Shown: piece after piece, positions 906 to 61,893 of the stretch
Position numbering within the stretch: the stretch's first letter is position 1
Layout: each line of letters starts with the position of its first letter
The notes under the pieces: generated by a model
Seen by the model: the letters and a program-made list of their open reading frames with translations, nothing else
The model's database searches: none
Told to the model about the DNA's origin: nothing
Position numbers and translations under genes: made by a program
Source of the DNA: Prorocentrum cordatum
Taxonomy: Eukaryota
Assembly: GCA_963575745.1 (NCBI GenBank)
Contig: CAUYUJ010000214.1
Span: forward strand, 372,001 to 436,000
Length of the DNA: 64,000 nt
Direction: 5' to 3'

Positions 906-1442
906 CCCTGGCGCCGCGGCCGAGTCCGGCTCGGAAAACTCTGGCCAGAGCGCGCCCCAGAAGAGGTTACCGAGACCTGGGCGTCACAGTTTCTCCCGAA
1001 AGCAGCCGGTCTATGAGGGTCTCACAGGGCCTTCTTCTGCTGTGTTGGGGCCGTCTTGGGGGCCTTTGGGGCCGTCGTGGAGCGACCTTGAAGGCTTCGT
1101 GGGCAGGCTTGGAGGGTCTCCTGGGGACCTTGTTGGGGGCCTTTGTTGGGGAGGGGCCGTGATCCGGAATCGGTGGGGCGCCGTGGTCTGCCGTGGTCTC
1201 CCGTGGTCTGCCGTTGTTTCCAGTTGTCGACCTGATCACGCTCTGGATGTCTCCGAGCATGCCCCGCTCTCCGCGCCGCGGTGTCAAGCTGTTCAGAGGG
1301 TCTTCGGCCGCAGGGGTGTCGTTCATGTCGCAGCGGGCGTTTTGGCCCGGCTCCGGGGGCCCCGGGACTAGGGCAGAACGGTCTGGCGGGAAGAGATGCC
1401 GCAGAAAGGCAAGGGCCAGGGCTCCAGTCGTGATTCGTCGCG

Positions 1443-4400
1443 GTGTTGCAATCGCTGCTCGGCTTGGCCGGAGGAGGGTGTTCAGATCCCCGGCGATGTG
1501 TTTTGTCAACCGTCGGTCGGCCCTCGGGGGCCGTTCTACGCGTCCTCGGATACAATCCAATGTGGGCATCAGGCGACAGACTGGCGGAGATACTGAGTGA
1601 ATCTCGAAATTATGACCTCGTTTTATTGGCAGGCACTCATGTAGGCGACAGATTACGTGGAGCACAGGTTTTGCAGCGTCGGCTTGATGGGCGCATGGTG
1701 TTCGAAGTACCTCACTCTCCTGCTCCTTTTAGCAATCGTAGTTGTGGGGTACTGATCGCCCTTGGTCCTCGCTATGGTGTCAGGGAAGTGCATCAGGTAT
1801 GGGGTAGTCCAGAGGGGGCAGCAGGGAGAGCGATGGCATTGAGATTAAAGCACAGCACCATGGACGTCTGCGCAATTAGCCTGTATTTCCCCCCCAAGCC
1901 AGTCAAGAACAACCAGAAACCTTCCTACTTTGGAACAGTTAAGGTGTTGTGTGAATGGCTGGACAGACTACTGAGTTCTCTCCCTACACGCTGTGTTCCT
2001 GTACTTTATAGTGATATCAACGATGGTCTGGGGGAGGAGTGGAGGGATGGAAGGTGGCAACGTGTTACTACTAACGTCGTGGGGGCCCCGACCCGTGAGC
2101 GCCTCGTGGGAGGGGCAGGGCATCGGCTTCGACAGATCCTTGAGAAGCATCACATGATGGCTGCGAATGCGCGCACGCATGTGGAGCACACCTTTTTCGG
2201 GGAGAAGGGCACATCCAGTCGCATCGACTACCTATGTGTCCCCATGGGTATGGCTGGACTCTTGCACGCTTGTAATCCCTTGAGGGGCCTGGGCGCGAAG
2301 TGGCAGCCAGTGCGCGGTGCTGCGCCGAGAGATCATCTACCCATCAATCTGAGCATGATCATGAACAAGGGAGGCCCTGTGCTTCCCCAGGAGGAGAGGA
2401 CGAGGTGGGACCAGGACAGGATGATGGAGGCGTTACGTACGGGTAAAGGGAGGTGGGCTTTCCTGGAGACGGTGGCGGAGGAAATGAGGAGTATCCAGCC
2501 TATTTACCAGAGGGATTGGGCGTCTCCAGATACGATTTTTGAAACTTTGGAGCAATGCATTGTTTCTGCTGGAAAAAAGCATTTCTTGGGAAGGGCACCT
2601 GTTCGGGAGGGCTACAGAGAAGACTGCGAACGCCGTCGGGAGTTACTTCGTCGTCGGGTTTCTCTACGAGGCAGTAAGTGCGAGGCCACAGAGTCGGAGG
2701 CCCATGAGATTGACCTCGAACTCCGCTCTCTTTCCCACCAGCTACAGCTCGACCGTCGTCGAGCCTTGCGCCGCCATCGTGACCGCTTGATGACAGAGGC
2801 GTCTGAGTGTTGGGAGCGTCGGCGTACAGCCGAAGCGATGCGTGCATCGAGGAGGGCGGCCCGTTGTCGTTACGGACCCAAGAAGCGGGACGCCCGACTC
2901 GCAGGTTGTACGTTACCTTCTGCAGACGAATGGATGAGAGTCTGGCGAGAACCAGGGGCGCAGGGAGGGATGTTGGTGGAGGAAGTGGATTGGGATCAGT
3001 TGCGGGCTTCTCGGGAGGAAGAGTCTTATGCTTATGAGTCGGAGGATCCTGAATTGACGGCAATCGTGAAGGAGGATGTGAAGGCCCTTCGTAGGTACTT
3101 CTGTTTTGCCCCCAAAAGAAAGCAAGTACCCGAACATACAGCACCAGTAGAATTATGGCACATGTTATTGTTTCCGAAGTGGAGGGTCCAGAATCGTGCA
3201 CTAGGATTAGGAGCAGGAGATGAAGCACCCAAAGTTGAGACTTTCTGGTGGATGCTACATGTTGGATTGCGTAAGATTCGTCTTCATCAGTTGGCCCCCC
3301 TCTACTGGCACCGCAGTCAAGGAGCTGCATTGGTAAAGAACCACCAGGCTGGACCCCTAGGACGCCGAGTAGTGCATGTGCTAGCTGCAATCGGCAAAGG
3401 ATGGTTTGCTAAACGATTACGCCCTTCCCCAACTACCTCGGACCATGGATTTGTGACCGGCCGTCGGCGTGAAAACGCTGTTATGATATCACTAAATACA
3501 TCATGGCGCCTCCGTGCCGCACAGAGGACACATGCAGTCTGCTTGAAGGACATGAGCAACGCATTTGGCAGCAGCAGCTTCGAGTCTATGAAAATCTCTG
3601 TCGCTCTACATGCGTCTGACCCCGACGTCGACCTGTGCGAACAGCGTTTCTTGGATTCGACGATCTTGCTCCCGACGAATACAGGAGGAGTACTAGTTAA
3701 ACCACGTCAGGGAGGTACAATGGGCGATCCTTTTATAGTATCGATGTTCGTTTCGACCTTTAAGAGACCAGTGATGAATTGGGAATATGACTTGCTTCAG
3801 TGGGATCCTACTTATCGTGATCTGAAGGCTAGCTGGGGGGAGTTACAGTCAGACCTCTCTCTCCTCAAGTACGCCGACGACATTAACAAAATTGTGCTAG
3901 CAGATCTGGACAGTACCCTTGGAGAATTTCTAGACAAAATTAAGCGCGTGGATGTCTCTCTAAATTCAAAGTTACAACCCTTCGGGTACGGCCAGAATAT
4001 GTCCAAGCAGGAGTTTCTGTTTCACTTCAGTGCGAGTGCACATTCGTGTAAGCAGTATTTGCGTGACCATCCCCAGTGTCTGGAGGGCCGTGTGCGAGAC
4101 GACGCACGTTACTTAGGACCCCGCATCGTACTCAGGGACAGTGCAGCAAGCGAGGTGGGTCGTCGTCTGGCTTCGTCTCGTGCCTCTTTTCACAGTTTGG
4201 GGGGAATATGGTCCCTGGACCTGCCGTACCGATGGAAAAGAGTCTTGTTTATTGGATTTGCTCAGAACTCTATCTTGAGTGGCATGGAGTCGTGGGTCCT
4301 CAGGGGTCACGACTACGACAGGTTGGATCGAGGACTGGCAGCTCTAGGCCGAATTGCGATGCAGGGAAAGGCTTCGACAGCATCGACGGTGCAGGAGGGT

Positions 4401-6287
4401 GATCACGTCAGATGTCTAACTACTCGGCAGGTCTTATCTTTCTGGAAGTTGGCCCCTAGTGCTGTCGAGCTCCGAGTTCGACGCGTTCGGTTATACCAGA
4501 GCTGGGCAAAGAAACCCAAGGAGAACGCACAAATATTATGTAGTTTGTTTGGGAGCACTTTGATGGACAATCACCGACCCCAACTTCGATACGGCCAACC
4601 TACGAAATTTGCCTCACCCTGGGTATTACAAGTGAAACGGGATTTGGAGGAGGTGGCGAGGGCATTGGACAGCGAGGTGGTGGAGGAGGTGGCGAGGGAC
4701 CTTACCATTCTTAAGGATGAGGAGAGGAGTTCGGATTTCGTGGCACTCGACGTTACGGAGCTTCGGGCACGTATGTTCACGGTCAGCATCCCTCCCCCTG
4801 GGAATTGGAGCTCTGGAGGCGGTTTACAGGAAGAAGAGGAGGAGGAGGAGAAGGTGGAGCGCCCTTATGTTTGTGGTCTCACAACAGATGAGGGAGTATG
4901 TACGTCCGCCTTCACGACAAGAAGGGAGCTCATGAATCATCTCAGGCGGGTGCACCACCTGCGCAACCAGTGCTATGTCCTCACGCCTACAAATGTATGC
5001 ATCAATTGCAAGCAGGTCTTCGGGTGTAAAAGCACAGCGGCACGGCATTTGCAGGGATCATTGTCCAGGGGCCACTGTGTGACGAGGGGCCCGTCGAATC
5101 TGAGAGCCACCCCCGACATCCCGAACACGTTCGCCTGTTTGCTCTGTGACTTTATCGGATCAAATCTGCTGAGCCTGTGTGAGCACTTGTGCGGACACCT
5201 CCCCTTTCGGCTCCCACCGTATACAGGACAACCGACTTCTGTAGGTGATGCCACCAGCGGCCTCAAGCATGTCAGTCGAAGCTCCACAGATGCCTTCGTG
5301 GTTCAACGAGGGTATCAAGCGGAAGGCCGACGGGGAGGAGGAGGGGGAGCTAGAGGGCAAGGACAAGAAGGGCAAGGGGGGCAGCGGGGGCGGCAGCGGC
5401 AGCAGCAGCGGGTTGGAGAAGAAGGTCGACACCGTCATTCGTCTCGTGCTCACCAATTCACGCGAGATAGCCGATTTGGGCGCCAGCGTGTTCCTTCGTT
5501 ACCTGCTCGCGGTGTCTACCCCCCTCGTGGCCGCCATTCTCGCAGCAGGGAAAGATTACGACCGCAAGTCACAGGAGATGAAAGAAAAGGCAAAGGGGGG
5601 GGAGAAGGTGGACTTCAAGAATCGTCCCTCCCCTCACGTGTGTATACTCACGGCAGCCGTACACTACGGCGCGACCAAGGCAGTCCAGGAGGGCAATATG
5701 AAAGCAAGGGACGAGAAGAACAAGGAGTTAATGAACCAGTTTTGGACAGAGAGGTTCGTGAATCTCGACTGGAGGGAGATCGGCAGGGCATGTGGGCACT
5801 TTCGCATCAAGACTCACCGCAAGGAGGAGGGGGCAGTGCAGACGTGCACGCTGTATATGCAATTCCACACGCGGGATCCGATCGCAGACGTCCTTTGCGG
5901 GTTGATGGAGGAGTTGGTGAAAGTGGAGGGGGGACTCTTCATGGTGGGAGCAGCGCCTCGGGGCCCCTTCGAGCGCGAGCTGTCCAAACAAGTAGGAGTG
6001 AGCAGCAAGTGAGGGCCTTTGCGACCAGCGTCAGATATCAGCAGCTTTTAGACAGAGGTTTGATAGTTGCGCCAGCTGCACAGCAGGTAATACAGACGTA
6101 TGCGCATGAGAATCTCCCCACTGTTCCAGTCGTAGTTTTACCCCAGCCGAAGAGCATGGGAAGAGGGAGGGGTGGGTCTCGGGGTGGGGGTCGTGGTCAG
6201 GCGTCGTCGGTTGGGAGGGGGGAAGGAGTGAGCAGCGGAGCGACGGAGCGTGAGGGCGCCCGCGCGCCCGCCTCCCTCCCGCCGTGA
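1443..6287 (+). CDS. LINE pol: APE/EEP endonuclease + reverse transcriptase + C-terminal C2H2-type zinc fingers (true start uncertain; the part after ~5240 is low complexity)
   Basis: EEP motifs: GYNP, DLVLLAGTH, LYSDIND, SRIDYL, RDHLPI. RT motifs: KDMSNAFGS, QGGTMGDP, KYADD (3870-3881), RYLG. Cys/His clusters: CGL..VCTSAF..MNHLRRVH, CINC..ARH, CLLC..EHLCGH. Confidence 0.93.
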   Translation: MLQSLLGLAGGGCSDPRRCVLSTVGRPSGAVLRVLGYNPMWASGDRLAEILSESRNYDLVLLAGTHVGDRLRGAQVLQRRLDGRMVFEVPHSPAPFSNRSCGVLIALGPRYGVREVHQVWGSPEGAAGRAMALRLKHSTMDVCAISLYFPPKPVKNNQKPSYFGTVKVLCEWLDRLLSSLPTRCVPVLYSDINDGLGEEWRDGRWQRVTTNVVGAPTRERLVGGAGHRLRQILEKHHMMAANARTHVEHTFFGEKGTSSRIDYLCVPMGMAGLLHACNPLRGLGAKWQPVRGAAPRDHLPINLSMIMNKGGPVLPQEERTRWDQDRMMEALRTGKGRWAFLETVAEEMRSIQPIYQRDWASPDTIFETLEQCIVSAGKKHFLGRAPVREGYREDCERRRELLRRRVSLRGSKCEATESEAHEIDLELRSLSHQLQLDRRRALRRHRDRLMTEASECWERRRTAEAMRASRRAARCRYGPKKRDARLAGCTLPSADEWMRVWREPGAQGGMLVEEVDWDQLRASREEESYAYESEDPELTAIVKEDVKALRRYFCFAPKRKQVPEHTAPVELWHMLLFPKWRVQNRALGLGAGDEAPKVETFWWMLHVGLRKIRLHQLAPLYWHRSQGAALVKNHQAGPLGRRVVHVLAAIGKGWFAKRLRPSPTTSDHGFVTGRRRENAVMISLNTSWRLRAAQRTHAVCLKDMSNAFGSSSFESMKISVALHASDPDVDLCEQRFLDSTILLPTNTGGVLVKPRQGGTMGDPFIVSMFVSTFKRPVMNWEYDLLQWDPTYRDLKASWGELQSDLSLLKYADDINKIVLADLDSTLGEFLDKIKRVDVSLNSKLQPFGYGQNMSKQEFLFHFSASAHSCKQYLRDHPQCLEGRVRDDARYLGPRIVLRDSAASEVGRRLASSRASFHSLGGIWSLDLPYRWKRVLFIGFAQNSILSGMESWVLRGHDYDRLDRGLAALGRIAMQGKASTASTVQEGDHVRCLTTRQVLSFWKLAPSAVELRVRRVRLYQSWAKKPKENAQILCSLFGSTLMDNHRPQLRYGQPTKFASPWVLQVKRDLEEVARALDSEVVEEVARDLTILKDEERSSDFVALDVTELRARMFTVSIPPPGNWSSGGGLQEEEEEEEKVERPYVCGLTTDEGVCTSAFTTRRELMNHLRRVHHLRNQCYVLTPTNVCINCKQVFGCKSTAARHLQGSLSRGHCVTRGPSNLRATPDIPNTFACLLCDFIGSNLLSLCEHLCGHLPFRLPPYTGQPTSVGDATSGLKHVSRSSTDAFVVQRGYQAEGRRGGGGGARGQGQEGQGGQRGRQRQQQRVGEEGRHRHSSRAHQFTRDSRFGRQRVPSLPARGVYPPRGRHSRSRERLRPQVTGDERKGKGGGEGGLQESSLPSRVYTHGSRTLRRDQGSPGGQYESKGREEQGVNEPVLDREVRESRLEGDRQGMWALSHQDSPQGGGGSADVHAVYAIPHAGSDRRRPLRVDGGVGESGGGTLHGGSSASGPLRARAVQTSRSEQQVRAFATSVRYQQLLDRGLIVAPAAQQVIQTYAHENLPTVPVVVLPQPKSMGRGRGGSRGGGRGQASSVGRGEGVSSGATEREGARAPASLPP
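5269..6012 (+). CDS. Second LINE-associated ORF (~247 aa), downstream of and overlapping pol in the +1 frame; function unknown
   Basis: Protein-like composition: charged KRKADGEEEG/KGKGG head, amphipathic helices (KKVDTVIRLVLTNSREIADL), RPSPH, terminal GAAPRGPFERELSK. The overlapping pol frame over this span is R/G-rich and unstructured-looking. Confidence 0.65.
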   Translation: MSVEAPQMPSWFNEGIKRKADGEEEGELEGKDKKGKGGSGGGSGSSSGLEKKVDTVIRLVLTNSREIADLGASVFLRYLLAVSTPLVAAILAAGKDYDRKSQEMKEKAKGGEKVDFKNRPSPHVCILTAAVHYGATKAVQEGNMKARDEKNKELMNQFWTERFVNLDWREIGRACGHFRIKTHRKEEGAVQTCTLYMQFHTRDPIADVLCGLMEELVKVEGGLFMVGAAPRGPFERELSKQVGVSSK

Positions 6288-6717: not shown

Positions 6718-7327
6718 TGGGGTGGAGGGGGGGCGTCCAGGAAGAGGAGGATCCCTGGGCTTCCTCGTGGAGGCCAGGCTTTGCCGGGGACGCTTTCGCA
6801 AACCCGACGATCACGAGTGCGTGCGTCAATTCGACGCAGCGGTGTCCTTTGGATGTGGATGCGTTGTCTGTGAACTGACAGCCCTCTTAGTCGAGCGACA
6901 GTGGGGAGGTGGGGGAGGAAGAGCAGGAGCAGCAAGAGCAGGAGGAGCAGGAGGGGATTGAGAGAGGGAGAGGCAGAGGGAGAAACAGCTGGAGCAGGAG
7001 GAGGAGGAGGAGGAGGAGGAGGAGGAGGAGGAGGGTTGGTCACTTGTGTAGCAGAGCGTGGCCGGAGCAGGAGAAGATATCCTTGCCGGTTGTGCCGTCC
7101 CAGTCCGCGCTGGCCAAGGAGACGGGGGCCAAACCAACCGCGCATGGCATGCGCTTTGCCGTACGTGCCAGAGGCCACTGTTATCCCTCCGGGCTCTCTC
7201 GACCGCCGCACTCCATCCTCCCTCCCTACCTCCCCTCCCTCCCGCTCTGCTCGTCGCTCGTTCCCTCCATCTCCTCCCCCTCCCTTCTCGTCCACCCCCG
7301 CCCCGTCGTCTTCGTCCTCCTGATCAA

Positions 7328-7404
<77 letters not shown>

Positions 7405-8388
7405 GCGTCGTCATCCCTCATCCCTTCCCCCCCCCGGCGGTCCCGCGGCGCGCGGGTCGCCAGGTGCGCCCAGGAATATAATGGCAGGGAGCTGCATGCA
7501 TACCACATCGGTCGTTGCACGCAGATATTTTTGCGGTCCCAGGTCCAGATCTACTGCAAGGGCCTTCCCACTTCAATCACCGACCTCTTTTTCATATGTC
7601 CTCTTCTTCTTCTTTTTTTTCTTCTTCTTCTTCTTCTTCTTCAGGGGGCGGGCGGAAGCCCAATCTACAGTCAACCATGATAGTAAGGATTGGACAACTT
7701 TCCAAGGCTACCCTTGCATCCTTGCCCCGTCGGCATTCCGCATCCTTCGGCATTCTGCTGCGCCCCGCACGGAAAGCGCCAACGTGGCGTTCCAAGGCCC
7801 CTGCATCCTTACCGCGCATCCTGCCTGTCCTGGCCGAGCCTACTTCCAGCGCCTTCCTGCTGCACGGCTCGGCCCGCTCCCTCCGACCGCAGGGCACCCC
7901 GAGCTCAGCCCTCCCGCCCGCCGCGCCGCCCGCGCCGGCCGGCGCGCCTGGTAAGGACCGCGCGCCTCCACCCAGGGCGCCCCTTGCGTCCCTGCCCCCG
8001 CGGCCCGTCCTCTGCCGTCACCGCGGGCCGAAGCCAGAACGGCTACGAGGAGGAGGAGGAGGAGGAGGAGGAGGAGGAGGAGGAGGAGGAGGAGGAGGAC
8101 GAGGAGGAGGAGGAGGAGGAGCAGGAGGAGGAGGACCCCTCCCCCTCCAACTTGTCGTGGTGGTGGTGGAAGACATGCCCAGCAGCAAAAGGGGCCTCGG
8201 GTCCGCGGAGGTCCCTGACGCCCGTCGCCGCCCGCGCGCCCCGAAGCCGGGGAGGGAAGACGCGCACCCAGACCAGACAGTCGGCGCTCACCTGCACGGC
8301 TCACGGGCGTGTGCTGCACGGCCCGGCCCCGTTCGCGTCCCTCCCCGGGTGCGCTTGCCGCTTCGCTTGTCGGGGTGGTTCTTATGCC

Positions 8389-8558
8389 ACCACCCACCAA
8401 ACCACCCCAACCCACCCCGAAGGCTCAGATCTACCCTCGATTTCTAGTGGGGGGGGGGGGTCGGGAAACGTCGAACAAAAACACGCGTGGAACCCTTGCC
8501 CCCCCCCCAACCCGAAATTCGGGTCTTCGGGTTGGGTTGGGGTGGTCTGGTAGGTAGT
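8389..8558. mobile_element. MITE-like element with ~33-bp imperfect terminal inverted repeats
   Basis: Left CCACCCACCAAACCACCCCAACCCACCCCGAAG; right CTTCGGGTTGGGTTGGGGTGGTCTGGTAGGTAG. Confidence 0.65.
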
Positions 8559-8682
8559 CATTATGGGGGGGGGATGTCCTGCCGTCCTCCTCCTCCTCCT
8601 CCTCTTCGTCCTCCTCCTCCTCCTCCTCCTCCTCCTCCTCCTCCTCCTCCGCCTTCTCCTCTGCCTCCTCCTCCTCCTCCTC

Positions 8683-8714
<32 letters not shown>

Positions 8715-8872
8715 GGCAGGGACCGCGCGCGCCTTCACCTCGGGGTGCCCCTGCGCCCTGGCCCCCGCGGCCTGTCCCCTCTGCCGCTCCCGCGGGCCGC
8801 CCGTCGCCCGAAAGAGGTCCCAGCTGCGGCCTCCAAGGGGCCCTTGCGTCCTTCAGGAAAGGGGGAAACACA

Positions 8873-9076
8873 TTGGAAGCTTGGAAATTGGCACCAACAC
8901 CAACATCATGGGTTGCCTCCACGGGAGGAAGATGATCCTGGATTTTGGTGTTGGTGGTAATCTTTCGGCCACCTAGAAAGCCTGAATATTACCACCATCA
9001 CCTGGATCGGGATCATCTTCCCTCGGTGGAAGCACGCCGCCGATATTGGTATTGGTGTCAACCTCCAGGCCTCCCA
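8873..9076 (-). mobile_element. 204-bp palindromic MITE (Introner family), inverted copy of 44336-44539, 5-bp TSD ACACA
   Basis: Aligns end to end with the reverse complement of 44336-44539. ACACA is at 8868-8872 and 9077-9081. It is inserted in another repeat whose uninterrupted relative lies at ~60650-60804. Confidence 0.88.
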
Positions 9077-9329
9077 ACACAGACACAAGTCATCGTCGAT
9101 TCCCCTGAAAATATGGGAAACTATGGGAAGTGGGGGGGGGGGAGACAGAAACCCAGAAAATATTGGGAAACTATGGGGAAGCCTGTGATTTGTGTGTATT
9201 AATTTTTGTGTGTCCCAGGGTCCCTTCAGTCCTTACCACCCGTCCTGAGTACACGTTTGGACTGCACGCCTCAGCGCCCGCGGTCTGCGGAGCGGGGCTG
9301 GGTGGCGATGCCGTCTCCGAGGCGGGCAC

Positions 9330-9870
9330 TTATCCCGGAAGAGGAGATGGTGCCCATAGCGCTACCTTTCCGTCGATTTCCCTTTTCGGGCCTCCTGGGA
9401 GGCCGTCGTCGCCACCGCTGGATTACTCGGAGTCTGGTCAGAACGCACCTCGGGAGATGTCCGCGGCGCAGCGGTATCGTTTTTTTTGGTTTCCCCATAA
9501 CCGCCGCCTGGGGAATCGATCTTCGGGGACCTCGGCAGGCGGTGGATATGGATGTGTCTGTTCCCCCCCGGGGCCCGAATGGATCCGCCTGCCGAGGGAC
9601 CCTGAAGAACGATCCCCCGGGCGATGGCGATAGAGATGTCCTGGCCTCGCAGGGTTGGACTCGTGCCGCCCGGTGCCTCGGCCTTGTTCCCGTGGTCGCT
9701 AACCAGGGCAGTCCTGCACAATCCCGCTTCCTCTCAATCCCGCTGCCAATCTCGCTGAATACGGTTTCGTCCTGGGCTCAGTGCGGCCCGATTCGGCTTC
9801 GTGGCCGCCTATTTTGATGATGTAGCCGCTCATGTTTCCCACGAGGACCTCCCAAGAAGTTGCTTCCTGA
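9330..9870 (+). pseudogene. Highly degenerate reverse-transcriptase fragment
   Basis: Motif-like segments occur in RT order across frames: VPIALPFRRF (RPIA..RR-like), GIDLRG, NQGSP, and FVAAYFDDV (YxDD). Confidence 0.45.
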
Positions 9871-10029
9871 GGCTGGGGGGCAGTGCCGCTGGTGCCGCCC
9901 ACTGTGCCTCGGCCTTGATCCCCCTCCCCCGGATCTGCGGCGGGGCGTCGGTGCCTCTGTTTCCGCGCTCGGCCGCGCTCCGCGGCGTCGGGGTTAGGAG
10001 AAGCGAGAGGCCACGACCACGTCAATGCC

Positions 10030-10975
<946 letters not shown>

Positions 10976-11319
10976 AAATTCCGAGATGTCCCAGGTCTCT
11001 ATACTTTCTTGTCCCGCACACGCTCCACAGACGAGGGCCGCTAGATACTCTGGGGCTCCTGGAACGCATCCTCGGCTAATTGCATCTTGACGTTTATTTC
11101 CGTTTGTGGCACGAGCTTTGAGTGGGCGCGCGTTGGCGGAAAGTTTGGCCGGGCCTCGAGATGTTAGAGCTGGCGTCTGGAGGTAGCGCGCTCGTGTCGG
11201 CCAGTCCTGAGGCCCGTGAGTGGAGACCGATTTCCCGCCGATGTCCCTGCGAAAGCCGCCAGCGTCTATCCGTTGCCGATCTCCTCCGCGTAAGTCGATT
11301 CCGTTGCGTATCGGTGGAG

Positions 11320-11740
11320 TTTTGTTTCATCCGCTTTTGTTTCGTCCGATTTTGTTTCGTCCGCTTTTGATTCATCCGCTGTTGTTTCATCCGCTTTTGT
11401 TTCGTCCGTCTTTGTGTTCGTCCGCTTTTGTTTCGTCCGCTTTTATTTCGTCCGCTTCGGTTTCGTCCGCTGTGTTTTGCGTGATTCATGTGGAAGTTTG
11501 TGGGATGAAAACCGGATGAATTTAAACTGGCCGAATTAGAACCGGATGAGTTTCAGACGAATTAAAACCGGATGAATTTACACCGGACGAATTCAGACCG
11601 GATTAATTTAAACGGGCGGATGAAAACCGGATGAATTCAAACCGGACAGAGTAAAATCGGATGAATTTTAATAGGACGATATCAAACCGGATGAGTTTAA
11701 ACCAGACGAATTTAAACCGGATGAATTTAGACCGGGCACG
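11320..11740. repeat. ~15-bp satellite (AAACCGGATGAATTT-like) in two oppositely oriented blocks
   Basis: TTTC(A/G)TCCGCTTTTG units at 11320-11470, then AAACCGGATGAATTT units at 11508-11735. Confidence 0.85.
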
Positions 11741-12534
11741 TAAAAACACATGGATCCAGCTATGGGCAACCATGTTAGATACCCCCTGGGTGACCTGGAT
11801 ACGTAAAAACACATGCTGCTGGCCAGGTGGCCTGGACACTTCAACCATGTCAGGTACCTCCCTGGATGGCCTGGACACGTAAAAACACGTGGTGCCAGCT
11901 TGGGACAACCATGTTAGATACACCCCTGAGTGGCCTGGACACATTAAAACATGCGGTCCTTGCTCGGGACAATCATGTTAGATAATCCCCTGGGTGGCCT
12001 GGACACGTAGAAGCACGTGGTTCCAGTTTGGGGCAATCATGTTAAATACCCCATTGGGCGGCCTGGACACGTACAAACACATGGTTTCGGCTCGGGACAA
12101 CCATGTGAGATACCCCTTTGGATGTCCTGGGACCTCGTGGGGCCTCCTGGAGAGGGCCAATCTACAGGAACGCATTTAAAAACACACGGATTCGTGCCCC
12201 TGGAGAGGGCCAATCTATGGGAACACATGAAAAACACACGGATTCGTGCCCCTTGCCCAACTCTGTCCCGCACTTTGTGATTTTTCGATCGGGATTTCAA
12301 ACGCGAGCGTTTCGCCAGGGACATCCTCAATTGTTCCCTGCCGAATGGGACTTCAACTTGTTATTAATAGCCGATAATTCGCCGGCCGAAGCCGGGGGAA
12401 ACATAACGGTACTAGACGAGAACCTTGGGACCGCGCCCTTTCCGGGAACATGATCGACCCACGAACGCGGAAAGGAATGTAGAAATATATGGCATGGCGA
12501 CGTTTCAATACATGTGATTAGGCGACGGGCACAA

Positions 12535-13140
12535 GCAATGTTGAGTCGATCGATTTTGATGTACCGTGCCGAGAGCTGTGCTGTGCTGCGCCGTGCTGAA
12601 CTGTGATGTGCCATGCCGCGATTGTGCTCTATAGCGTTGTGGATCGCGTCTTCGTTTGCATCCGAGTCCTGACCGAATTGATCTGGATCTTAAGCTCGAG
12701 CTGCCTGAGCACATAGTAGCTGCACCAGAGCTAATTGACAGGGGGACATGCAAGGAGGACGCGCCGCGGCACGTCCCATTGGACGTGCAAGCGACGTCAG
12801 GGGGCGTGCCAGGGGGACGCACCGCGGGACGTGCCAAGGGAACGTGCTACGGAACGTGGCAATGGACGTGCCACGGGACGTGCGCGACGTGCCAGGGGGA
12901 TTCGCCACGGGACGTGCCACGGAACGTGCCAAGGAACGTACCAGGTTGCATTGTTGAGTGTATCGGTATTGATGTACCGTTCTGAGGGCTGTGCTGTGCT
13001 CCGCCGTACTGAACTGCGATGTGCCATGCCGCGATTGTGTTCTATAGTAGTGCTTTGGGTCGATTCCTCCTTTGCATCCGAGTCCTGACCGAACTGATTT
13101 GGATCTTGAGCTCGAGCTGCCTGAGCAGATAGTAGCTGCC
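12535..13140. repeat. Two ~186-bp direct repeats flanking a 12-bp (CCACGGGACGTG)-type array
   Basis: 12539-12724 and 12952-13140 are clearly homologous. Confidence 0.8.
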
Positions 13141-13638
13141 CCGGGTGTGAACCCATGTGAACCCATGTGTGTTCATGCTTGCCCCGCCCTGGGGCGTTAG
13201 GAACCATGTATTTTCAAGCTTGCTCCGCCATGGGGCGTTAGGAACCCATGTGTTTTCACGTATCTCCCGCCCTGGGGCATTCGGAACCCATGTGTTTTCA
13301 AGTTTGTCCCGCCCTGGGGCGAAAGAACCCATGTGTTTTCGCGCTTCCCCTGCCCAGGGGCGTTAGGAGCCCATATGTTTTCATGCTTGTCCCGCCCTGG
13401 GGCGTTAGGAGCCAGCTTCTCGGGCCTCCTGGGGCCTCCTGGGGGCTGGAGGGAAGCGAAAAGCCCTCCCCGAGCACATGTTCCAATACAGAACAGGATG
13501 CCCATGTTGGATATCCCCATGTGGGGCCTGGGCACGTTAAAGCACCTGGCTCCGCCATGCCAAATACCCCCTGTGCGGCCTGGACACGAAACCACGTGGT
13601 TCCAACTCGGGACAATCATATTAGAGAGAGCGTGATCC

Positions 13639-14415
13639 ACCGCCGCTTTACTGTGGAAAATTGCCGCCCTTTTCCTCCGGAACCGGGGGTTCCCCCCCCC
13701 CCCCCCCTCCGAAATCCCCCCCCCTGCTGGACCCCCCCCCCCCCCCCTTCCCCCGGCAAAACCCTCCCCCCCCTCCCCCTACCACCCCCCCCTCGAACTC
13801 GAAAACCGGAGGGGGGTCACTACCGGTTCGAACCCCCCCCCTCTCGAAAACCGGAGGGGGGGGTCACTACCGGTTCGAACCACTGAGCTGTCCCACTGTT
13901 CCCACCACTGTCCCCCTGTCCCTACCACTGTCCCCACTGTACCTCTGTCCATTGTCCCACCGCCGTCCTCGCCACCGCCTTCACCACTGTCCCCACCACC
14001 ACTGTACCCTCCACTGTCCTACTGTTTCCACCACATTCCCACTGTCCCCACACCACTGTCCCCACCACCACCGTCCCCACCACTGTCCCACTGTCCCCAC
14101 TGTCCCCACCATTGTCCTCACCATTGTCCCCACCACTACCGCCCCCACCACTGTCCCACTGTCCCCACCACTGTCCCGCTGTCCCCTCACCACTGTCCCC
14201 ACCACCACCGTCCCCACCACTGTCCGCACCCCCCCTCGGTTTTCGAGGGGGCGGGGGGGGGGGTTCGAACCGGTAGTGACCCCCCCCGGTTTTCGAGCTC
14301 GAGGGGGGGGGGGGGTTCGAACCGGTAGTGACCCCCCCCCTTTTCATGATGAATTGGGGGGGGGGGAGGGGTTCGAACCGGTAGTGACCCCCCCCTGTTT
14401 TCCGCCAGCAGCGGT
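13639..14415. mobile_element. Foldback/MITE-like insertion with internal (CACTGTCCC)-type minisatellite
   Basis: GGGGGTCACTACCGGTTCGAACC occurs twice on the left and its reverse complement three times on the right. Termini are ACCGCCGC..GGAAAA and TTTTCCGCCAGCAGCGGT. Confidence 0.7.
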
Positions 14416-17176
14416 AGAACATGCTCTTTCTCATATTAGATACCCCCTCTGGGTGGCCTGGACACGTGAGAACACGTGGGACCAGCTCTGGGCAACCATG
14501 TTAGATACACCCCTGGGTGGCCTGGACATGTTAAAACACGTGGCCCTTGTTCGGGACAACCATGTTGGATATCCCCCTGTGTGGCCAAGACACGTGAAAC
14601 ACTTGGTGCCAGCTCGGGACAACCATGTTAGGTACACCCGGGGGTAGCCTGGACACGTTAAAACACGTGATACTTGTTCAGGACAATCATGTTACCCCCG
14701 TGTGTGGCCTGGAGACGTGAGAACACGTGGTTCAAGCTCGGGACGACCAAATTAGATATCCCCTTGGGTGGCTTGGACACTTACAGAAACATTGTTCCAG
14801 CTCGGGACAACCATATTAGATACCCCCCTGGGTCCCAGCTCGGGGCAACCATGTTAGATATTTCCCTAGGTGGCCTGGACACGTAGAAACACGTGTTTCC
14901 AGCTCAGGACAACCAGTTCGGGAACACCATGTCAGATACACCCATGTGGCCTGGACACGTTCAAAATGCATGGTACTAGTTCGGTACCACCATGTTAGAT
15001 ACCCACCTGGGTTGCCTGGACACGTGAAAACACGTGGTTCCAGCTCGGGGCCACCATGTGAACTACCCCACCTGTGTTACCTGGACACACCAAAGCACGT
15101 GGTTCCATCTCGGGACCACCATGTTAGATACCCCCCTGGGTGGCCTGGACATGTGAACACACATGGCTCCAGCTCGCACGGGATGCACTTTTTCGACCAA
15201 CATGTGCCCCGCACCTTGTGATTTACCGATCGGGATTTCAAAACCAAGCGTTTCGCTAGGGACATCCTCAATTGTTCCACGCCGAATGGGACTGAACCTC
15301 GTTATTTATCGCAACTGGTATCGCTGGCCGAAATCGAAGGGGAACACTACTAAAAGAGAATCCTGGGCCCACGCCCTTTCCGGGAAAAACACGTGGTTCA
15401 AGTTCGGGACAACCATGTCAGATATCCCTTTGGGTGGCCTGGACATGTAAAAACAGATGGTTCCATCTCGGGACAACCATGTTAGATACCCCCTGGGTAG
15501 CCTGGACATGCGAAAACGCGTGCTGCCAGCTCGGGGCAACCTTGGTAGATATCCCTTTGGGTGGCCTGGACATGTACAAACACATGGTTCCAGCTTGGGA
15601 CAAGCATGTTAGATACCCCCCTGCGTGGCTTGGATACGCAATGTCTTCCCTGGAGAGGCCCCTTCAAGCGCCAACCCCTGTCCAGAACAAGAAAACCTCA
15701 CTCTTTCCGTATTGGCATCTGTGTTCGGGTAGCGCTTTGGGCCCCCCAGGCGTTTCCTGATAATTCTGCCCGACGCCATGTTAGATACCCCCTTGGGTGG
15801 CCTGGACACGGAAAAACACGTGGTTCCAGTTCGGGGCAATCATGTGAGATACCCCATTGGGTGGCCTGGACACGTAAACTCATTTGGATCCATCTCTGGG
15901 CAACCATGTTAGATACACCCCTGGTTGGCCTGGACACGTTAAAACACGTGGTCCTTACCCGGGACAACCATATTAGATACCCCAATGTGTGGCCTGGACA
16001 CGTAATAACACATGGTGCCACCTCGGGAAAATCATGTTAGATACACCCTTGCGTGGACTGGAAACGTTCAAACACGTGGTCGCTGCTCGGGACAAACATG
16101 TTAGATACCCCCATGTGTGGCCTGGACACGTTAAAACACGTGGTCCGTGCTCGGGGCAACCATGTTAGATACCCCAATGTGTGGCCTGGACGCGTAAAAA
16201 CACATGGTGCCACCTCGGGAAACCCATGTTAGATACACCCCTGCGTGGACTGGAAGCGTTCAAACACGTGGTCTTTGCTCGGGACAAACATGTTAGATAC
16301 CCCATGTGTGGCTTGGACACGTAAAAACTCATGGTGCCAGCTCGGGACAACCATGTTAGATACATTCTGGAGTGGCCTGGACAGTTGAAACACGCGGTCG
16401 TTGCTCGGGACAATGGTGTTAGATAATTGCCTGGGTGGCCTGAACACGTAAAAACGCAAAGTTCCAGTTCGGGGCAATCATGTTAGATACCCCACTTGGT
16501 GGCCTGGACAAGTAACAACACGTGGTTCCAGCTCGGGACAACCATGGTGGATACCCCCAGGGTGACCTGGGACCTCCTGGGGCCTCCTGGAGAGGGCCAA
16601 TATATAGGAACATACGTAAAAACATACGGATTCATGCCCCTGACCCAACCGTGCGCCGCGCTTTGTGATTTATCGATCGGGATTTCAAAAACCATCGTCT
16701 CGCTAGGGGCATCCTCAAATTGTCCTCGCCGAGTGGTACTTTACCTCGTTATCTCTCGCACATATTTTTGCTGGTCGAAACCAGGGGGAAACAACACAAT
16801 ACTAAACGAGAACCCTGGGCCCGCGCCATTTCCGGGAATATCCGTGCTGTGCGAAATCGGAAAAACGGGAATTGCATGCCCACGAGGGGGGCGGTGGCGG
16901 GTGAGGAGGAGGATGACTGGGAAGAGGAGGATGAGGACGAACAGCAGCAACAGGAACAAAAGCGGAAGGATATAGGGGAATGAGGCGACCAGGGAAAGGC
17001 GGAGGAGGGGAAATGAGGGGAGCGACACTGATGACGACAATTCGGATTCAGAAACGTGGCCCGCGCTGAAGCGAGACGAGAAGCAGCAGCAACAGGAATT
17101 GGGGTGGAAGGAGCCGGACGAACAGGAGGACTAGGGAAAAGCGGACCGCAGCGGAGCGGAGCGGCGCCGATGTCGC

Positions 17177-20435: not shown

Positions 20436-20848
20436 TGATGCTGCAGACCAGACGAATTGGGGAAAAAACGATTCTTGTTCGCTTAAGAGTTTGCCTTCAC
20501 AGCCTGACCACACCAGGCACAAGTAGCGGTTGCGGCGGAACCTGTGGATTACCTTACAGGGTCAACGCCAACATCAAAGGCCTCAAATCGAGGGAAGGCC
20601 GGTACAGCCAAAGAGACGGCAACGAGCGGCAGCACGCAACGAAAGTGTCACGAAGTATGGTCCGCAAGTGCAGAAGGAGGAGGGAGGAGGACAGAAGGAA
20701 GGAGAGGAGGAGGAGGAGGAGGAGGAGGAGGAGGAGGAGGAGGAGGAGGGAGGAGGAGGAGCGAGGAGAGGAGGAGGAGGAGGAGGAGGAGGAGGAGAGG
20801 AGGAGGAGGAGGAGGAGGAGGGAGGAGGAGGGAGGAGGAGGGAGGAGG

Positions 20849-43446: not shown

Positions 43447-45137
43447 ATGGGAACCAGGGAGCTGCGGCTGCCGCCGGCGTCCAGCCGAGCAGCTGTAGAG
43501 AGCTATGTCTCGCGCGTGGCCCCGCAGCTGCCCCCGGACGTTGCCTTTGCCACGCTGGTGCCGTGGAGCTCTCCGCAGCGACCGAGCAGGCTCGCCACAC
43601 CAGACTCTGCGGCTCAAGGCCGTTGGGACCCAGAGGGGATCGCGGACCTGGCGTCCGAGTGCACCAGCTTGCTGGTGCCATGCACGTTCGAAACGCGGTA
43701 CGAGAAGCGGTTGATGAAGAAGTTGTTGGAGCAGCTCGAGCCGCACCGTGACATCTGCGTGTACGTTCTGCAGCTCCTCGAGGTCGCGGGCCAGATCACC
43801 CGAGAGTACGTGCAGACGGTCATGGCGCGCCACGACGCGCTCCTGGCCGTCGGTGCCAACGCTGTGCTGCTGGATCCTACCGACAATCCAGATCGGCTGC
43901 TCCAGAATCTCGACCAAGAGCGGGCTTGGTTCGAAGCGAATGCGCTGCGTGCAAAATCGATGGTCGACTGCAACGACGACTATTTCCAGTCTGTGCTGGA
44001 CCATCACCACGAGCTGCTATGGGAGAGCGTCCCGAAAGCTCTGATGCGAAATTTCGACCCCATCGATCGCAACCTCGTGGAAACGGCCAACAGGGTGGGC
44101 GATTACAAGATGACCAATCGCTTCAGCTCGAGGAGCGGGAAAGACGTCCTGCTTGCCGAGCGGAGCGAATCCGAGAAGGTCGTCCTCAAGGTCTACAACA
44201 AGTGGGACCATCCGTCTGCCGGGGACCTGGAGTGCATCTACCGCGAGCTGCGGTTCCTGCGGGACGTGCTGCGGCACCCGCACATCGCCCGCTGCACCGA
44301 CATGAACCACAGCTTCTCTCGGGTGTACTTGGTTTTCGGAGTCCTAGAGATTGACACCAACACCAAGATCGGCGGTGTGCCTCCACCGAGGGAAGACGAT
44401 CCCGATCTCGGTGATGGTGGCAATATTCTGGCTCCCAAGGGGGCCGAAATATTGCCACCAGCACCGAAGTCTAAGATCATCATCTCCCTGTGGAGGCAAA
44501 CCCCTGTCCTGGTGTTGGTGCCAATTTCCAGGCCTCCCAGGTTTTCGAACTGGGGGGCATGCAGAATCTGCACCAGCGCCTCCTGGACCAGCCGGGGTAC
44601 CGCCTCGATCTGGAGGATGCCGTGGACTGCACGGTGCAGGTGGCAGGAGCGCTGGCCTACTGCCACTCGCGGGACATCGTGCACAGGCAGGTGTGTCTGG
44701 AGCACATCGTCGTGGAGGACCAGTCCGAGGCGCCTTTCTGCCGCCTGGTGGACTTCTACCAGGCGACGCGCTGCCCAGAGGCGACACCGCTGGCCACGAC
44801 GTGCGGGGACCTGCCGTGCATCGCTCCCGAGGTGGCCCTGGATGAGTCGTACGTCGCCAAGCCTGCGGACTGCTGGAGTCTCGGGGTGGTGCTCCTCGAG
44901 GCCGCCGGGGGCCTGGGCTCGATGCGGCAGGCGGTCGGCTGGCCGGAGGAGGCGGAGCTGGAGCCCACGGCCAGAAGGATCAAGAACTTCTTCTCCGGCG
45001 AGGGGAGCCACGCTCGCGCACTGGCGGTCATGGGCGGCGTGCGCAGCGAGGCCGTGCTGGCCAACCTGTCTGCACTCCTCGAGCCGACGCCCACGGCTCG
45101 GGCGAGCATGGACGCCATCGCACAGTTCTCCGCCTAG
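43447..45137 (+). CDS. Ser/Thr protein kinase-like (probable pseudokinase), 493 aa; exons 43447-44331 and 44541-45137
   Basis: VVLKVY, IYRELRFL..LRHPHI, then across the splice junction RVYL|VFELGG, LAYCHSRDIVHRQVCLEH, LVDFY, CGDLPCIAPE, ADCWSLGVVLLE, PTARAS. Removing GT..AG 44332-44540 joins track ORFs 43447 and 44490 in frame. Confidence 0.88.
44336..44539 (+). mobile_element. Introner: 204-bp palindromic MITE forming the phase-0 intron 44332-44540; 5-bp TSD GGTTT
   Basis: The whole element is an imperfect inverted repeat. GGTTT is at 44331-44335 and 44540-44544. The donor GT comes from the left TSD; the acceptor CAG is the terminal CA plus the first G of the right TSD. Confidence 0.9.
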
Positions 45138-59250: not shown

Positions 59251-60648
59251 GCGCACGCAAGCGGGCGACGCTTGAGCGCGTGAGCCAAAACCCAGGGTTG
59301 CGCCCGGATTTCCCGTGCTGCGTGCGCGCTCCACGCGCGGGCGCCCGAGGCTGCGACGCTTCCTGCGCCGCCGCGACGCGCGAGCCCCAGCGCTTCGTCG
59401 CCGCCCGCAAATAGCGGCTAAGCTGGCAAAGCAACGCAGAACCAATGCGCACCCGAAGTTGCGATCCCGTAGCAAGTAAACGCGCGCGATGCTTGTCATT
59501 ACTTCGGCAGTCACACGCTCGATTTTCCAGCCGCCCCCCAGACTGCCCTGCAGTTTCTGCAGGGCCAGCCAGTGCGCGCGCGCCCGCGCCCCACGGGCGC
59601 TGCGCGCAACGTGCCACTTGCGGGTGCGACCAGAGATGGCAAGCGCCTGATCGCATGCATCACAGGCGCTCTGAGTTGCTTGTGCCATGTGGGGTAGCGG
59701 CGATGTCGGCCGTTGGAGATGACCGCTGCGTTGTGCAACGTGGAAGAACCATTCCGTATTATACGAGCATCGGGTGTGTGGTTGCTTCTCTGTGACACAG
59801 CCTGTTGTGTGAGGGCGGTTTGTGCAATCCTTCGGTTTGCAGGCTGAAGTGCCGCATCTCCGCGCCTGCCCACCGTGAGGCCGCGCCCGCCGCGCGCGCC
59901 TCGAGCCGCGGCAGCGGTCCCGCTCGCGGCGCACCTCTGGGATCGTCTTTCGGGACCGCTCCCTCGTAGCCCTGCTTGCATGCTTGCGCGCGCGCGGTTG
60001 GCGGGGGCGGCGCCGTGAAATGGGGAGGGCGGGGAGAGGCGACGTGGGCCGCCCCCCTCGGCACGGGCGTTTCCCAGTTCCCCTGGCTGCCTGCTTGGGG
60101 CGGGCGGCCCTCCCCGCGGGGATCGGGCAGAGGGAAAGCACCCAGGCCAACGTGCCCCCGATGCTCGCAGCGTCCTGGAGGGGGTGGGGGGGGGGGCTTG
60201 GGATGCTCCTCTCACCCCGAGGTCTCCGCCTCCCTCCTCGGCGCCGCTCTTCTCGCGCGGGGGGGGGGGGCATCGAGCCCTCGGGGGCAGCAGGGGCCCG
60301 CGTTTGAAAATCCGGCGGCGCCGCCTGAAAAAGGCATGCCAGCGCCAACGCAATCACACCGTCAACGCGGCGCTATCTGGAACCATCGAGGATGTGACAA
60401 CACGTAGGTGTACGATCCTCAAATATCTTTCGACGTCCGTTGCAATGTGGGTTCAGGCTTTCGGCCGCTTCAGAAAAAGAAAGCCACCCTGGGGCATCAA
60501 ACCCTCGGGATTGGTGGGGGCCCGCGCTTGGGCCCCTGGCGCCGCCGCCCGAAAAGGAGTGTCACCGTCACCGCTATTGCACTGCCACCGCGCCGCTATG
60601 AGGAACCATTGAGGATATGGTTAGCGCGTCGCGCCGATTGTTTTTTTT

Positions 60649-60802
60649 CTGGACGGGAAAAAGACACACACAGACACAATGAATCGTCGATTCCCCCCAA
60701 AGTACGGGAAACTATGGGAAGTGGGGGGGGGACAATAACCCAGAAAATATGGGAAATATGGGGAATCCTTTTATCTGTGTGTATTTACTAGTGTGTCCCA
60801 GG
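60649..60802. mobile_element. MITE-like dispersed repeat (host of the Introner copy at 8873)
   Basis: Matches 8855-8872 joined to 9082-9219; a third degenerate copy is at ~61716-61860. Confidence 0.65.
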
Positions 60803-61423
60803 GCCCCCACCGAGGAGGAAGAATGGAAGGAGGAGGAGGAATGGGAGGAGGAGGAGGAGGAGGAGGAGGAGGAGGAGGACGAGGAGGACGAGGACGAGGA
60901 GGACGAGGAGGACGAGGAGGACGAGCTGGCCCACCGCGCTTCGGCGCGACGCGCCCGCCACGTCCAAGGTTCCCCGAGCAGCAGCGCCCAGAGGTTTCCC
61001 AGCCTCCCGCTTCGCAGAAGGGAGCGTTGCGGTGCCCCCTTGCAGGGCGCAGCGCTCCTCCTCCTCCCTCCCTCTTCCTCCCTCCTCCCTCCTCCCTCCT
61101 CCCTCTTCCTCCTCCTCCTCCTCCTCCTCCTCCTCCTCCTCCTCCTCCTTCTCCTCTTTCGCCTTCTCCTCCTCCTCCTCCTCCTCCTTCTCCTCTTTCG
61201 CCTTCTCCTCCTCCTCCTCCTCCTCCTCCTCCTCCTCCTCCTCCTCCTCCTCCCATCACCCCACCCTGGGCCCCGTCTCCTTCGCGCCGAGCAAGGACTT
61301 GTCGGTGGTGCCCTTCCTGGAGTTCGAGAAGGCGCGTCCGGCGCTGGGCGGCGCCGGAGGCTCCCGCGTGCCTCGAACGCTGCTGCTCCATCCCCCCCCA
61401 TCCTCGCTGGGGCTGCTTTTTTT

Positions 61424-61463: not shown

Positions 61464-61861
61464 GGCGTCGGTTTGAGCGGGCTGCGACTGGGGAGGAGAG
61501 GGGAAAGAAGGGAGGGCCCTCCTCATCCCCCCCCCCCCTTCCTCCCCCCCCCCCCGATCCTGTTTTCCTTCGCCGCCCTCCGCCCTCGCCGCCTGCTTCC
61601 CTCTGCCCGCCGCCCGCCTCTGCTGCTGCTGCTGCATCCCGAGCCGTCGCTCGACGGCCGCGAGGCCCAGCGAGGGCACCACCAGGCCGAGCACAAGAGC
61701 AGCAGGAGGAGCACAAAAACACACACACAGGCACGAGGAATCGCCGACTCCCCCAGGAAGAGATCTAGGGAAAGATGGGCAGAGGGGGGGGGGGACGACG
61801 AACGCCCAGAAAAGCATGGGGAACCATGGGGACTCCTGGGCTTTGTGTGTGTGTGTGTTTT

Positions 61862-61893
<32 letters not shown>

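What the first reader, a model, noticed from the sequence alone, without database searches (positions are those of the whole stretch)
8868..9081. Second, non-exonic copy of the same element, with an in-window empty-site proxy
Seen: 8873-9076 is also 204 bp, is the inverse of 44336-44539, and has a different 5-bp TSD (ACACA). Seen: deleting it gives ...AAACACAGACACAAGTCATCGTCGATTCCCC, which matches the uninterrupted repeat at ~60665-60700 (ACACACAGACACAATGAATCGTCGATTCCCC). Inference: this independently fixes the element's ends and TSD length and shows that it is mobile. It also shows that insertion is not restricted to splice-competent sites.
Basis: seen in the sequence. Interest (0 to 1): 0.7.

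Follow-up and report, generated by a model that had tools for sequence, protein, structure and literature searches.

The report
Non-coding copy of an intron-making transposon
A 204-base hairpin-shaped jumping element sits in non-coding DNA of the red-tide alga Prorocentrum cordatum, while its twin 35 kb away forms the only intron of a kinase gene; this is a clean but ordinary example of the already known "introner" way of making introns.

Summary
8873-9076 is 204 bp and flanked by ACACA on both sides. It is the reverse complement of 44336-44539 (83% identical, no gaps; only 73% in direct orientation), and homology stops at the proposed ends. Each copy is a near full-length palindrome (DNA fold z -8.6 and -11.2). 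The other copy plus one 5-bp repeat is the single GT..AG intron of a kinase gene annotated in Prorocentrum cordatum. Copy 1 lies in sequence with no coding periodicity, about 21 nt inside a ~160-bp dispersed repeat. The 2 other window copies of that repeat both lack the 204 bp. RNA-type contigs from four runs match the element and diverge at about 8871 and 9072, so the family is multi-copy. One caveat: the site is a (CA)n tract, and keeping both ACACA aligns as well or better to the empty copies. The proxy shows an insertion but does not fix the TSD length, which could be 5 or 6 bp. I read it as a non-autonomous TIR transposon of the introner type, here in a site that cannot be spliced. The kind is known; this family is new. 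Interest is low to moderate.

The parts
8868..8872 (.). Left flanking direct repeat ACACA (putative TSD) of copy 1
   Evidence: Read. It lies in a CA-rich tract, so it may be partly pre-existing microsatellite.
8873..9076 (-). Copy 1 of the 204-bp palindromic TIR element. Strand is given relative to copy 2. Termini are TTGGAAGC... and ...GGCCTCCCA on the + strand.
   Evidence: 83% to the reverse complement of copy 2, no gaps. (DNA hairpin -54.3 kcal/mol, z -8.6). (contigs of other copies match 8871-9072 and then run on unlike).
9077..9081 (.). Right flanking direct repeat ACACA of copy 1
8852..8872 (+). Left stub of the interrupted host repeat, about 21 nt with weak homology
   Evidence: the local alignment to 60647 onward reaches back to 8852 when both ACACA are kept.
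9077..9224 (+). Right part of the interrupted host repeat. CA/TG-rich ends look like short inverted repeats.
   Evidence: (83% to 60668-60807; 72% to 61725-61872), and (inverted arms 9083-9092 and 9186-9195).
60647..60807 (+). Uninterrupted copy of the host repeat (paralogous empty site)
   Evidence: One search shows 20-nt inverted arms, 80% complementary.
61717..61872 (+). Second uninterrupted, more diverged copy of the host repeat
44336..44539 (+). Copy 2 of the element, inside the kinase gene
44332..44540 (+). 209-nt GT..AG intron, made of TSD bases 2-5, the element, and TSD base 1. It is the only intron of the gene.
   Evidence: protein P0001 (100% identical, 493 aa) maps to 43447-44331/7 and 44541-45134. 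Pkinase profile 16-75 ends at the exon 1 end, and 77-258 starts at residue 2 of exon 2. RNA fold -127.7 kcal/mol, z -13.5.
44331..44335 (.). Left TSD GGTTT of copy 2
44540..44544 (.). Right TSD GGTTT of copy 2
43447..44331 (+). Kinase exon 1
44541..45137 (+). Kinase exon 2 with stop codon

Best explanation
8873-9076 is a non-genic copy of a small non-autonomous DNA transposon (a MITE of the foldback type) in the dinoflagellate Prorocentrum cordatum. The element is 204 bp long and is an imperfect palindrome over almost its whole length. Its termini read 5'-TGGGAGGCC...GGCCTCCCA-3', and it is flanked by a 5-bp (possibly 6-bp) target-site duplication.

Copy 1 landed about 21 nt inside another small dispersed repeat, in sequence that does not look coding, and it simply sits there.

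Its twin landed in the coding exon of a kinase gene at a GGTTT target. There the duplicated target supplies the GT of the 5' splice site (TSD bases 2-3). The element's last A plus the first G of the downstream TSD makes the AG of the 3' splice site. Removing 209 nt therefore restores the original reading frame exactly. The family thus behaves as an 'introner'.

Shown here: the ends, the inverse orientation, the hairpin, absence from paralogous repeat copies, multi-copy status, and the exact intron in the gene model. Inferred: cut-and-paste mobilisation by a transposase encoded elsewhere; random insertion followed by survival in exons only where splice sites happen to form; and the lack of any function for copy 1.
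For: Two copies share 83% identity in inverse orientation without gaps, and homology ends at the element ends. Each copy folds as a hairpin far better than shuffles. Both copies are flanked by direct repeats of equal length, ACACA and GGTTT. In the window, 2 of 2 other copies of the host repeat lack the 204 bp.

Contigs from four runs were laid on 8720-10050: 44, 137, 32 and 27 contigs, of which 22, 76, 20 and 24 lay only partly on it. They match the element at 88-99%, with the greatest depth at its two ends. They carry loose ends at 8871 (6 contigs in 3 runs) and 9072 (3 contigs in 1 run), and the onward sequences disagree (agreement 0.59-0.72). A short derivative joins 8905 to 9054 in two runs.

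The kinase evidence is as follows. Exon 1's end aligns to Pkinase 16-75 and exon 2 to 77-258. A 100%-identical 493-aa protein named for Prorocentrum cordatum reads ...SRVYLVFELGG... across the junction and maps as two exons around the 209 nt. Six relatives fetched are contiguous at that site.

Copy 1's flanks show no GC3 periodicity: the phase spread is at most 0.22 over 8700-10000, against 0.36-0.68 in the kinase exons.

The kind is described in the literature. Dinoflagellate introner-like elements have TSDs of 3, 4, 5 or 8 nt, with splice sites taken from the TSD, the element, or spanning both (bioRxiv 10.1101/2020.10.14.339549, whole-text parts 1-2 read). Introner elements were reported in 2.4% of P. 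cordatum introns (PMC10666404 supplementary note, passages).
Against: Only two full copies could be read, and no other copy with its flanks could be fetched.

The ACACA repeat of copy 1 lies in a CA microsatellite. A model without any duplication aligns as well or better to the empty paralogues, so copy 1 alone does not prove a TSD.

TSD length is ambiguous between 5 and 6 bp, because a T follows the downstream repeat in both copies.

No transposase domain was found in 71 window ORFs scanned against Pfam, so the mobilising enzyme and superfamily are unknown.

The empty sites are paralogous. No orthologous presence/absence polymorphism was seen.
Confidence: 0.85

Rival explanations
1. Same transposon, but the ACACA pair at copy 1 is pre-existing (CA)n microsatellite rather than a target-site duplication. 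Alternatively the true TSD of the family is 6 bp with a 203-bp element. Either way, copy 1 adds no independent information on TSD length.
For: The empty paralogues carry (CA)4 and (CA)5 at the site. Keeping both ACACA scores 98 and 50, against 93 and 41 with one removed. In both copies the base after the downstream repeat is T, the same as the element's first base.
Against: Both copies show a direct repeat of the same length at the same distance from symmetric termini (T...A). A 5-bp partition keeps the inverted termini in register (TGGGAGGCC against TCGGAGTCC in copy 2). Microsatellite length varies between the paralogues anyway.
Confidence: 0.3
2. Copy 1 is not intergenic. It lies inside a long intron or untranslated region of an unannotated transcript, and is removed with it or through cryptic splice sites.
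For: Mean intron length in P. cordatum is 4.7 kb (PMC10666404 supplementary note, passage), so 1.3 kb of non-coding flank does not exclude an intron. On the minus strand a GT lies at TSD bases 2-3 and an AG lies 22 nt beyond the element (read).
Against: No exon-like periodicity within 8700-10000 apart from trinucleotide microsatellites.
Confidence: 0.2
3. The element spread as an intron through RNA, by reverse splicing or intron transposition, rather than as a DNA transposon.
For: One copy is an exact intron.
Against: The unit shared by the two copies is the 204 bp, not the 209-nt intron. Copy 1 carries neither the GTTT nor the final G of the intron, is in inverse orientation, has its own flanking repeat and sits in non-coding DNA.
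Confidence: 0.03
4. A local inverted segmental duplication or assembly artefact rather than a mobile element.
For: Only two copies are in the window, and they are in opposite orientation.
Against: Flanks are unrelated beyond the ends. Many contigs from four independent runs carry the element with differing flanks. The annotated protein splices around copy 2.
Confidence: 0.02

Closest known systems
Introner-like elements (ILEs) of Polarella glacialis and Symbiodinium (Roy et al., bioRxiv 10.1101/2020.10.14.339549; parts 1-2 of the text read)
   Same: Short non-autonomous elements with inverted ends and a TSD. [quoted passage not shown] Classes with 3, 4, 5 and 8 nt TSDs exist, and class 12 has 5 nt.
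   Different: Here the species is P. cordatum. The 5' GT comes from TSD bases 2-3, and the AG spans the element's last A and TSD base 1; I did not find that frame listed for the 5-nt class in the parts I read. The element is palindromic over nearly its whole 204 bp. Sequence relatedness to the Polarella classes was not tested, because I did not hold their sequences.
Introner elements as scanned for in P. cordatum (Dougan et al. 2023, PMC10666404 / bioRxiv 10.1101/2022.07.25.501386; passages and supplementary note) and Amoebophrya (Farhat et al. 2021, PMC7789003; passages)
   Same: These are defined as introns with 8-20 nt inverted repeats and 3-5 nt direct repeats near both ends, often forming hairpins. 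Copy 2 fits that definition. IEs were reported in 2.4% of P. cordatum introns.
   Different: Those scans looked only inside annotated introns and by pattern, not by family. A copy outside genes such as 8873-9076 would not have been counted. Amoebophrya IEs often use non-canonical splice sites, whereas copy 2 here uses GT..AG.
Intergenic copies of introner families (Gozashti et al. 2022, PMC9860276; passages)
   Same: Introner families have copies outside genes that can be recovered by consensus search. TSDs were seen in 49 of 130 families and TIRs in 72 of 177.
   Different: That work found introners enriched in genes in 161 of 175 genomes. With two copies here, nothing can be said about enrichment.
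MITEs and foldback elements (general class; recalled)
   Same: Small size, no coding capacity, inverted termini, TSD, many copies, and deletion derivatives that keep only the ends (joint 8905 to 9054).
   Different: No cognate autonomous element or superfamily was identified.
Transib superfamily (5-bp TSD; recalled, not from a call)
   Same: A 5-bp TSD, if 5 is the true length.
   Different: Transib termini, as I recall them, begin with CAC, whereas these begin with TGGGAGG. No transposase was found, so membership is not supported.

Membership tests
Non-autonomous TIR DNA transposon (MITE) | Terminal inverted repeats | tested here: met
   Each copy against its own reverse complement is 72% and 76% identical over about 202 nt. 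There are 74 consensus pairs. Hairpin z-scores are -8.6 and -11.2.
Non-autonomous TIR DNA transposon (MITE) | Flanking target-site duplication of constant length | tested here: inconclusive
   Both of 2 copies have 5-bp direct repeats. Copy 1's repeat lies in a (CA)n tract, and 6 bp also fits both copies.
Non-autonomous TIR DNA transposon (MITE) | Dispersed, multi-copy, with unrelated flanks | tested here: met
   Two copies lie 35 kb apart with unrelated flanks. Contigs in 4 of 4 runs match the element and run on unlike at its ends.
Non-autonomous TIR DNA transposon (MITE) | Empty sites lacking the element | tested here: met
   Paralogous sites only: 2 of 2 other host-repeat copies in the window lack it. 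Orthologous empty sites were not seen.
Non-autonomous TIR DNA transposon (MITE) | Cognate autonomous element with matching termini | not testable with these tools
   No genome is held. No transposase Pfam domain was found in 71 window ORFs.
Introner (intron-generating transposon) | A copy is removed exactly as a spliceosomal intron | tested here: met
   For copy 2: P0001 maps as two exons around 44332-44540, and the Pkinase profile is continuous across the join, 75 | 77.
Introner (intron-generating transposon) | Many introns in unrelated genes made by the same family | not tested
   Only one genic copy was seen. Whether the contigs come from introns cannot be told.
Introner (intron-generating transposon) | Splice sites supplied by the TSD and/or element end | tested here: met
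   Read: G|GTTT + element + ...CCCA|G.
Transib superfamily | 5-bp TSD together with CAC... termini and a Transib transposase (features recalled) | tested here: not met
   Termini are TGGGAGGCC / GGCCTCCCA. No transposase was found.

The most novel reading that the evidence does not exclude
The family may have a target preference of the form N-G-T-N-T(-T). In the element's own orientation both TSDs (TGTGT and GGTTT) carry GT at positions 2-3 and are followed by T. Under that preference every sense-strand insertion would bring its own 5' splice site, and only a G at TSD position 1 would decide whether an exon insertion is harmless. The near-perfect 95-bp RNA stem, which starts 6 nt after the GT and ends 3 nt before the AG, would hold the two splice sites together. 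That would make this a transposon whose integration chemistry is tuned to intron creation, belonging to a TIR superfamily not yet identified.
Probability: 0.12. Interest if true: 0.5.

Novelty: new member of a known kind. Interest (0 to 1): 0.25.

Why it matters
This is a tidy within-window pair. The same element occurs once as the sole, exact intron of an otherwise intronless kinase gene, and once as an inert insertion in non-coding repeat DNA. That illustrates the accepted model in which introners insert widely and persist in exons only where the target happens to complete the splice sites. It adds a sequence-defined family (204 bp, full-length palindrome, TSD of 5 or 6 bp) to P. cordatum, where introner elements have so far been reported only by pattern counts inside introns. 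It does not change the model.

Tried and rejected
1. Own genome search: no genome is held for this window, so genome-wide copy number, TSD logo and orientation bias could not be obtained.

2. Public collections.
- The same scan of viral contigs returned 4 stretches.
- None of the 123 loci held showed similarity to the element at E<=1e-3. The best relaxed hits were 16-36 nt, so these are chance matches.
- Two further viral scans gave 0 and 12 loci. All 12 matched only the 20-27 nt seed.
- No family member was found outside the window.

3. Read laying on 8720-10050.
- No contig of the four runs covered 8720-8854 or 9575-10050, and no contig bridged the insertion site. This says nothing firm about transcription or about an orthologous empty site.
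- All four runs were contigs of about 100-117 million letters and may all be RNA.

4. Share of words. PolyA RNA runs hold 0.81 of the words of 43800-45200, and the intron is 15% of that stretch.

5. Covariation in the hairpin. Only 2 of 74 pairs changed on both sides between the two copies, and 12 changed on one side and kept a wobble pair. With two sequences and a structure predicted from them, this shows nothing about selection on the stem.

6. Window scan for the terminal 13-mer with up to 2 mismatches. It gave 28 matches against 4.3 expected. Apart from the two known ends, 24 of the 28 fall in the 11.8-16.5 kb region that holds the 64-bp satellite, and the site at 27093 is not a copy.

7. 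Earlier notes of this scan. Nothing was found near the place or by sequence.

Full report
**What is there**

The window is 59.0% G+C and contains no N.

- At 8868-9081 the sequence reads ACACA, then 204 bp (8873-9076), then ACACA.
- At 44331-44544 it reads GGTTT, then 204 bp (44336-44539), then GGTTT.
- blastn of copy 1 against the window finds copy 2 on the opposite strand at 83.1% over 201 nt (E 8e-55). On the same strand it finds only 72.8% over 195 nt. No third copy is found.
- MAFFT aligns copy 2(+) with copy 1(-) over 204 columns without a gap.
- When 20-nt flanks are included, conservation stops at the element ends.

Each copy is 72-76% identical to its own reverse complement. As single-stranded DNA the copies fold to -54.3 and -62.6 kcal/mol, with z -8.6 and -11.2 and 0 of 200 shuffles as good.

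**The other copy is an exact intron, and the organism can be named**

- The frame after 44541 matches Pkinase profile positions 77-258 (E 5e-18).
- The last 62 residues before 44331 match positions 16-75 (E 0.003, below Pfam's cut-off when taken alone).
- A protein search with exon 2 returned a 493-aa protein, 100% identical, named by its source 'unnamed protein product [Prorocentrum cordatum]', from a 664-kb contig.
- Its sequence runs ...SRVYLVFELGG... across the site.
- tblastn places residues 1-295 on 43447-44331 and residues 296-493 on 44541-45134.

The gene therefore has one intron, 44332-44540. This is 209 nt: four bases of the left GGTTT, the element, and the G of the right GGTTT. The GT comes from TSD bases 2-3. 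The AG is the element's last A plus TSD base 1.

The six relatives I fetched are all contiguous at this position. As RNA the intron folds to -127.7 kcal/mol (z -13.5), and the stem starts 6 nt after the GT and ends 3 nt before the AG. Coding periodicity (GC at third positions 0.86-0.90) drops over the element and resumes in a shifted phase after it.

The window's G+C agrees with the 59.7% reported for P. cordatum (bioRxiv 10.1101/2022.07.25.501386, passages). An earlier unchecked note of this scan had named the same species.

**Copy 1 is in non-coding DNA**

Between 8700 and 10000 the spread of G+C among codon phases is at most 0.22. In the kinase exons it is 0.36-0.68. The periodic stretches nearby coincide with trinucleotide microsatellites. 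None of the ORFs that cross or flank the copy hit Pfam above its cut-off.

In copy 2's orientation, copy 1's flanking repeat is TGTGT.

**The empty-site proxy**

With the element removed, the right flank from the ACACA onward matches 60668-60807 (83% over 148 nt) and 61725-61872 (72% over 149 nt). All three copies are on the same strand, and each has CA-rich and TG-rich inverted ends. The 'host repeat' may therefore itself be a small TIR element.

Left of the insertion the homology is short, about 21 nt with 15 or so matches. Both other copies lack the 204 bp, which supports an insertion.

The proxy does not settle the duplication. The empty copies carry (CA)4 and (CA)5 at the site. A reconstruction keeping both ACACA aligns a little better (98 and 50) than one with a single ACACA (93 and 41). 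In addition, a T follows the downstream repeat in both copies, and T is also the element's first base. So 6 bp + 203 bp fits as well as 5 bp + 204 bp. The symmetric T...A termini, and the in-register inverted ends, favour 5 bp.

**Other copies**

No genome is held, so I laid contigs from four public runs on 8720-10050 at 88% or more likeness. One run is polyA RNA and three are of unstated kind; three carry distinct organism codes and the polyA run is labelled marine metagenome.

- 44, 137, 32 and 27 contigs were laid. Of these, 22, 76, 20 and 24 lay only partly on the stretch.
- Depth over the element is greatest in the two end bins (8855-8899 and 9035-9079) and lower in the middle.
- Loose ends are reported at 8871 (3, 2 and 1 contigs in three runs) and at 9072 (3 contigs in one run). 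The onward consensus has low agreement (0.59-0.72), meaning the flanks differ.
- Two runs hold a form that joins 8905 to 9054, a deletion derivative keeping only the termini.
- The table was truncated: 95 loose ends and 211 pieces are not shown.

This shows a multi-copy family whose homology ends within a few bases of the proposed ends. The same call shows that the start of the host repeat (9077-9138) and two short pieces (9380-9424 and 9495-9553) are also multi-copy.

**How it most likely works**

The anatomy is that of a non-autonomous cut-and-paste DNA transposon. It is small, has no coding capacity, has inverted ends and a flanking repeat, occurs in many copies, and has end-only derivatives. 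No transposase domain was found among the 71 window ORFs scanned, so mobilisation in trans is inferred rather than shown, and the superfamily is open.

Insertion appears indifferent to splicing. An exon copy survives where the target completes the splice sites. A copy in non-coding DNA needs nothing.

**Comparison with what is known**

- Roy et al. describe exactly this logic in Polarella and Symbiodinium, including a 5-nt TSD class and splice sites that span the element-TSD boundary.
- Dougan et al. report introner elements in 2.4% of P. cordatum introns. They used a pattern scan confined to introns, which follows Farhat et al..
- Gozashti et al. recover intergenic copies of introner families and find TSDs and TIRs in a share of them.
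- I did not find Prorocentrum in the main text of Gozashti et al. 2025 (0 occurrences). Its datasets were not read.

**Verdict**

The thing itself is a new, sequence-defined member of a known kind, so interest is modest.

Noticed in passing
window 9077-9224, 60647-60807, 61717-61872: The 'host repeat' is a ~150-nt dispersed repeat present three times on the same strand. Its CA-rich and TG-rich ends form 10-27 nt imperfect inverted repeats, so it may itself be a small TIR element and copy 1 a nested insertion. Contigs also match its first 50-60 nt.
   Followed up: partly
window 9380-9424 and 9495-9553: Two short pieces are highly multi-copy in the laid contigs (summed depth up to 2208), with sequence running on unlike at both sides. 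9392-9407 is a 7-bp-stem palindrome whose right arm equals the 9-nt terminus of the 204-bp element. I cannot tell whether that is chance or relatedness.
   Followed up: no
window 8905/9054 (form seen in runs X7 and X8): Contigs join 8905 to 9054 with one extra C. This is a roughly 56-nt deletion derivative of the element that keeps only the two termini.
   Followed up: no
window 43447-45137: The kinase gene has a single intron, the transposon. It belongs to a family of at least ten paralogues in P. cordatum at 65-89% identity over exon 2. Whether the paralogues carry the intron could not be checked.
   Followed up: partly
window 11778-16571: Arrays of a 64-bp tandem repeat. A 15/30-bp repeat lies at 11320-11737.
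   Followed up: no
window 20219-24019 (+): A 1267-aa open frame with a zf-RVT match (E 1e-6), probably a non-LTR retrotransposon. A 1617-aa open frame at 1434-6284 has no Pfam match.
   Followed up: no
window 7000-11000 and elsewhere: Very abundant trinucleotide microsatellites (GGA, GCT, GAG, TCC, and TGA up to 264 copies). They mimic coding periodicity and dominate repeat searches.
   Followed up: no
window 30162-30992 (+): An open frame with a Gly_transf_sug (DXD glycosyltransferase) match, E 1.4e-5, just above Pfam's cut-off.
   Followed up: no
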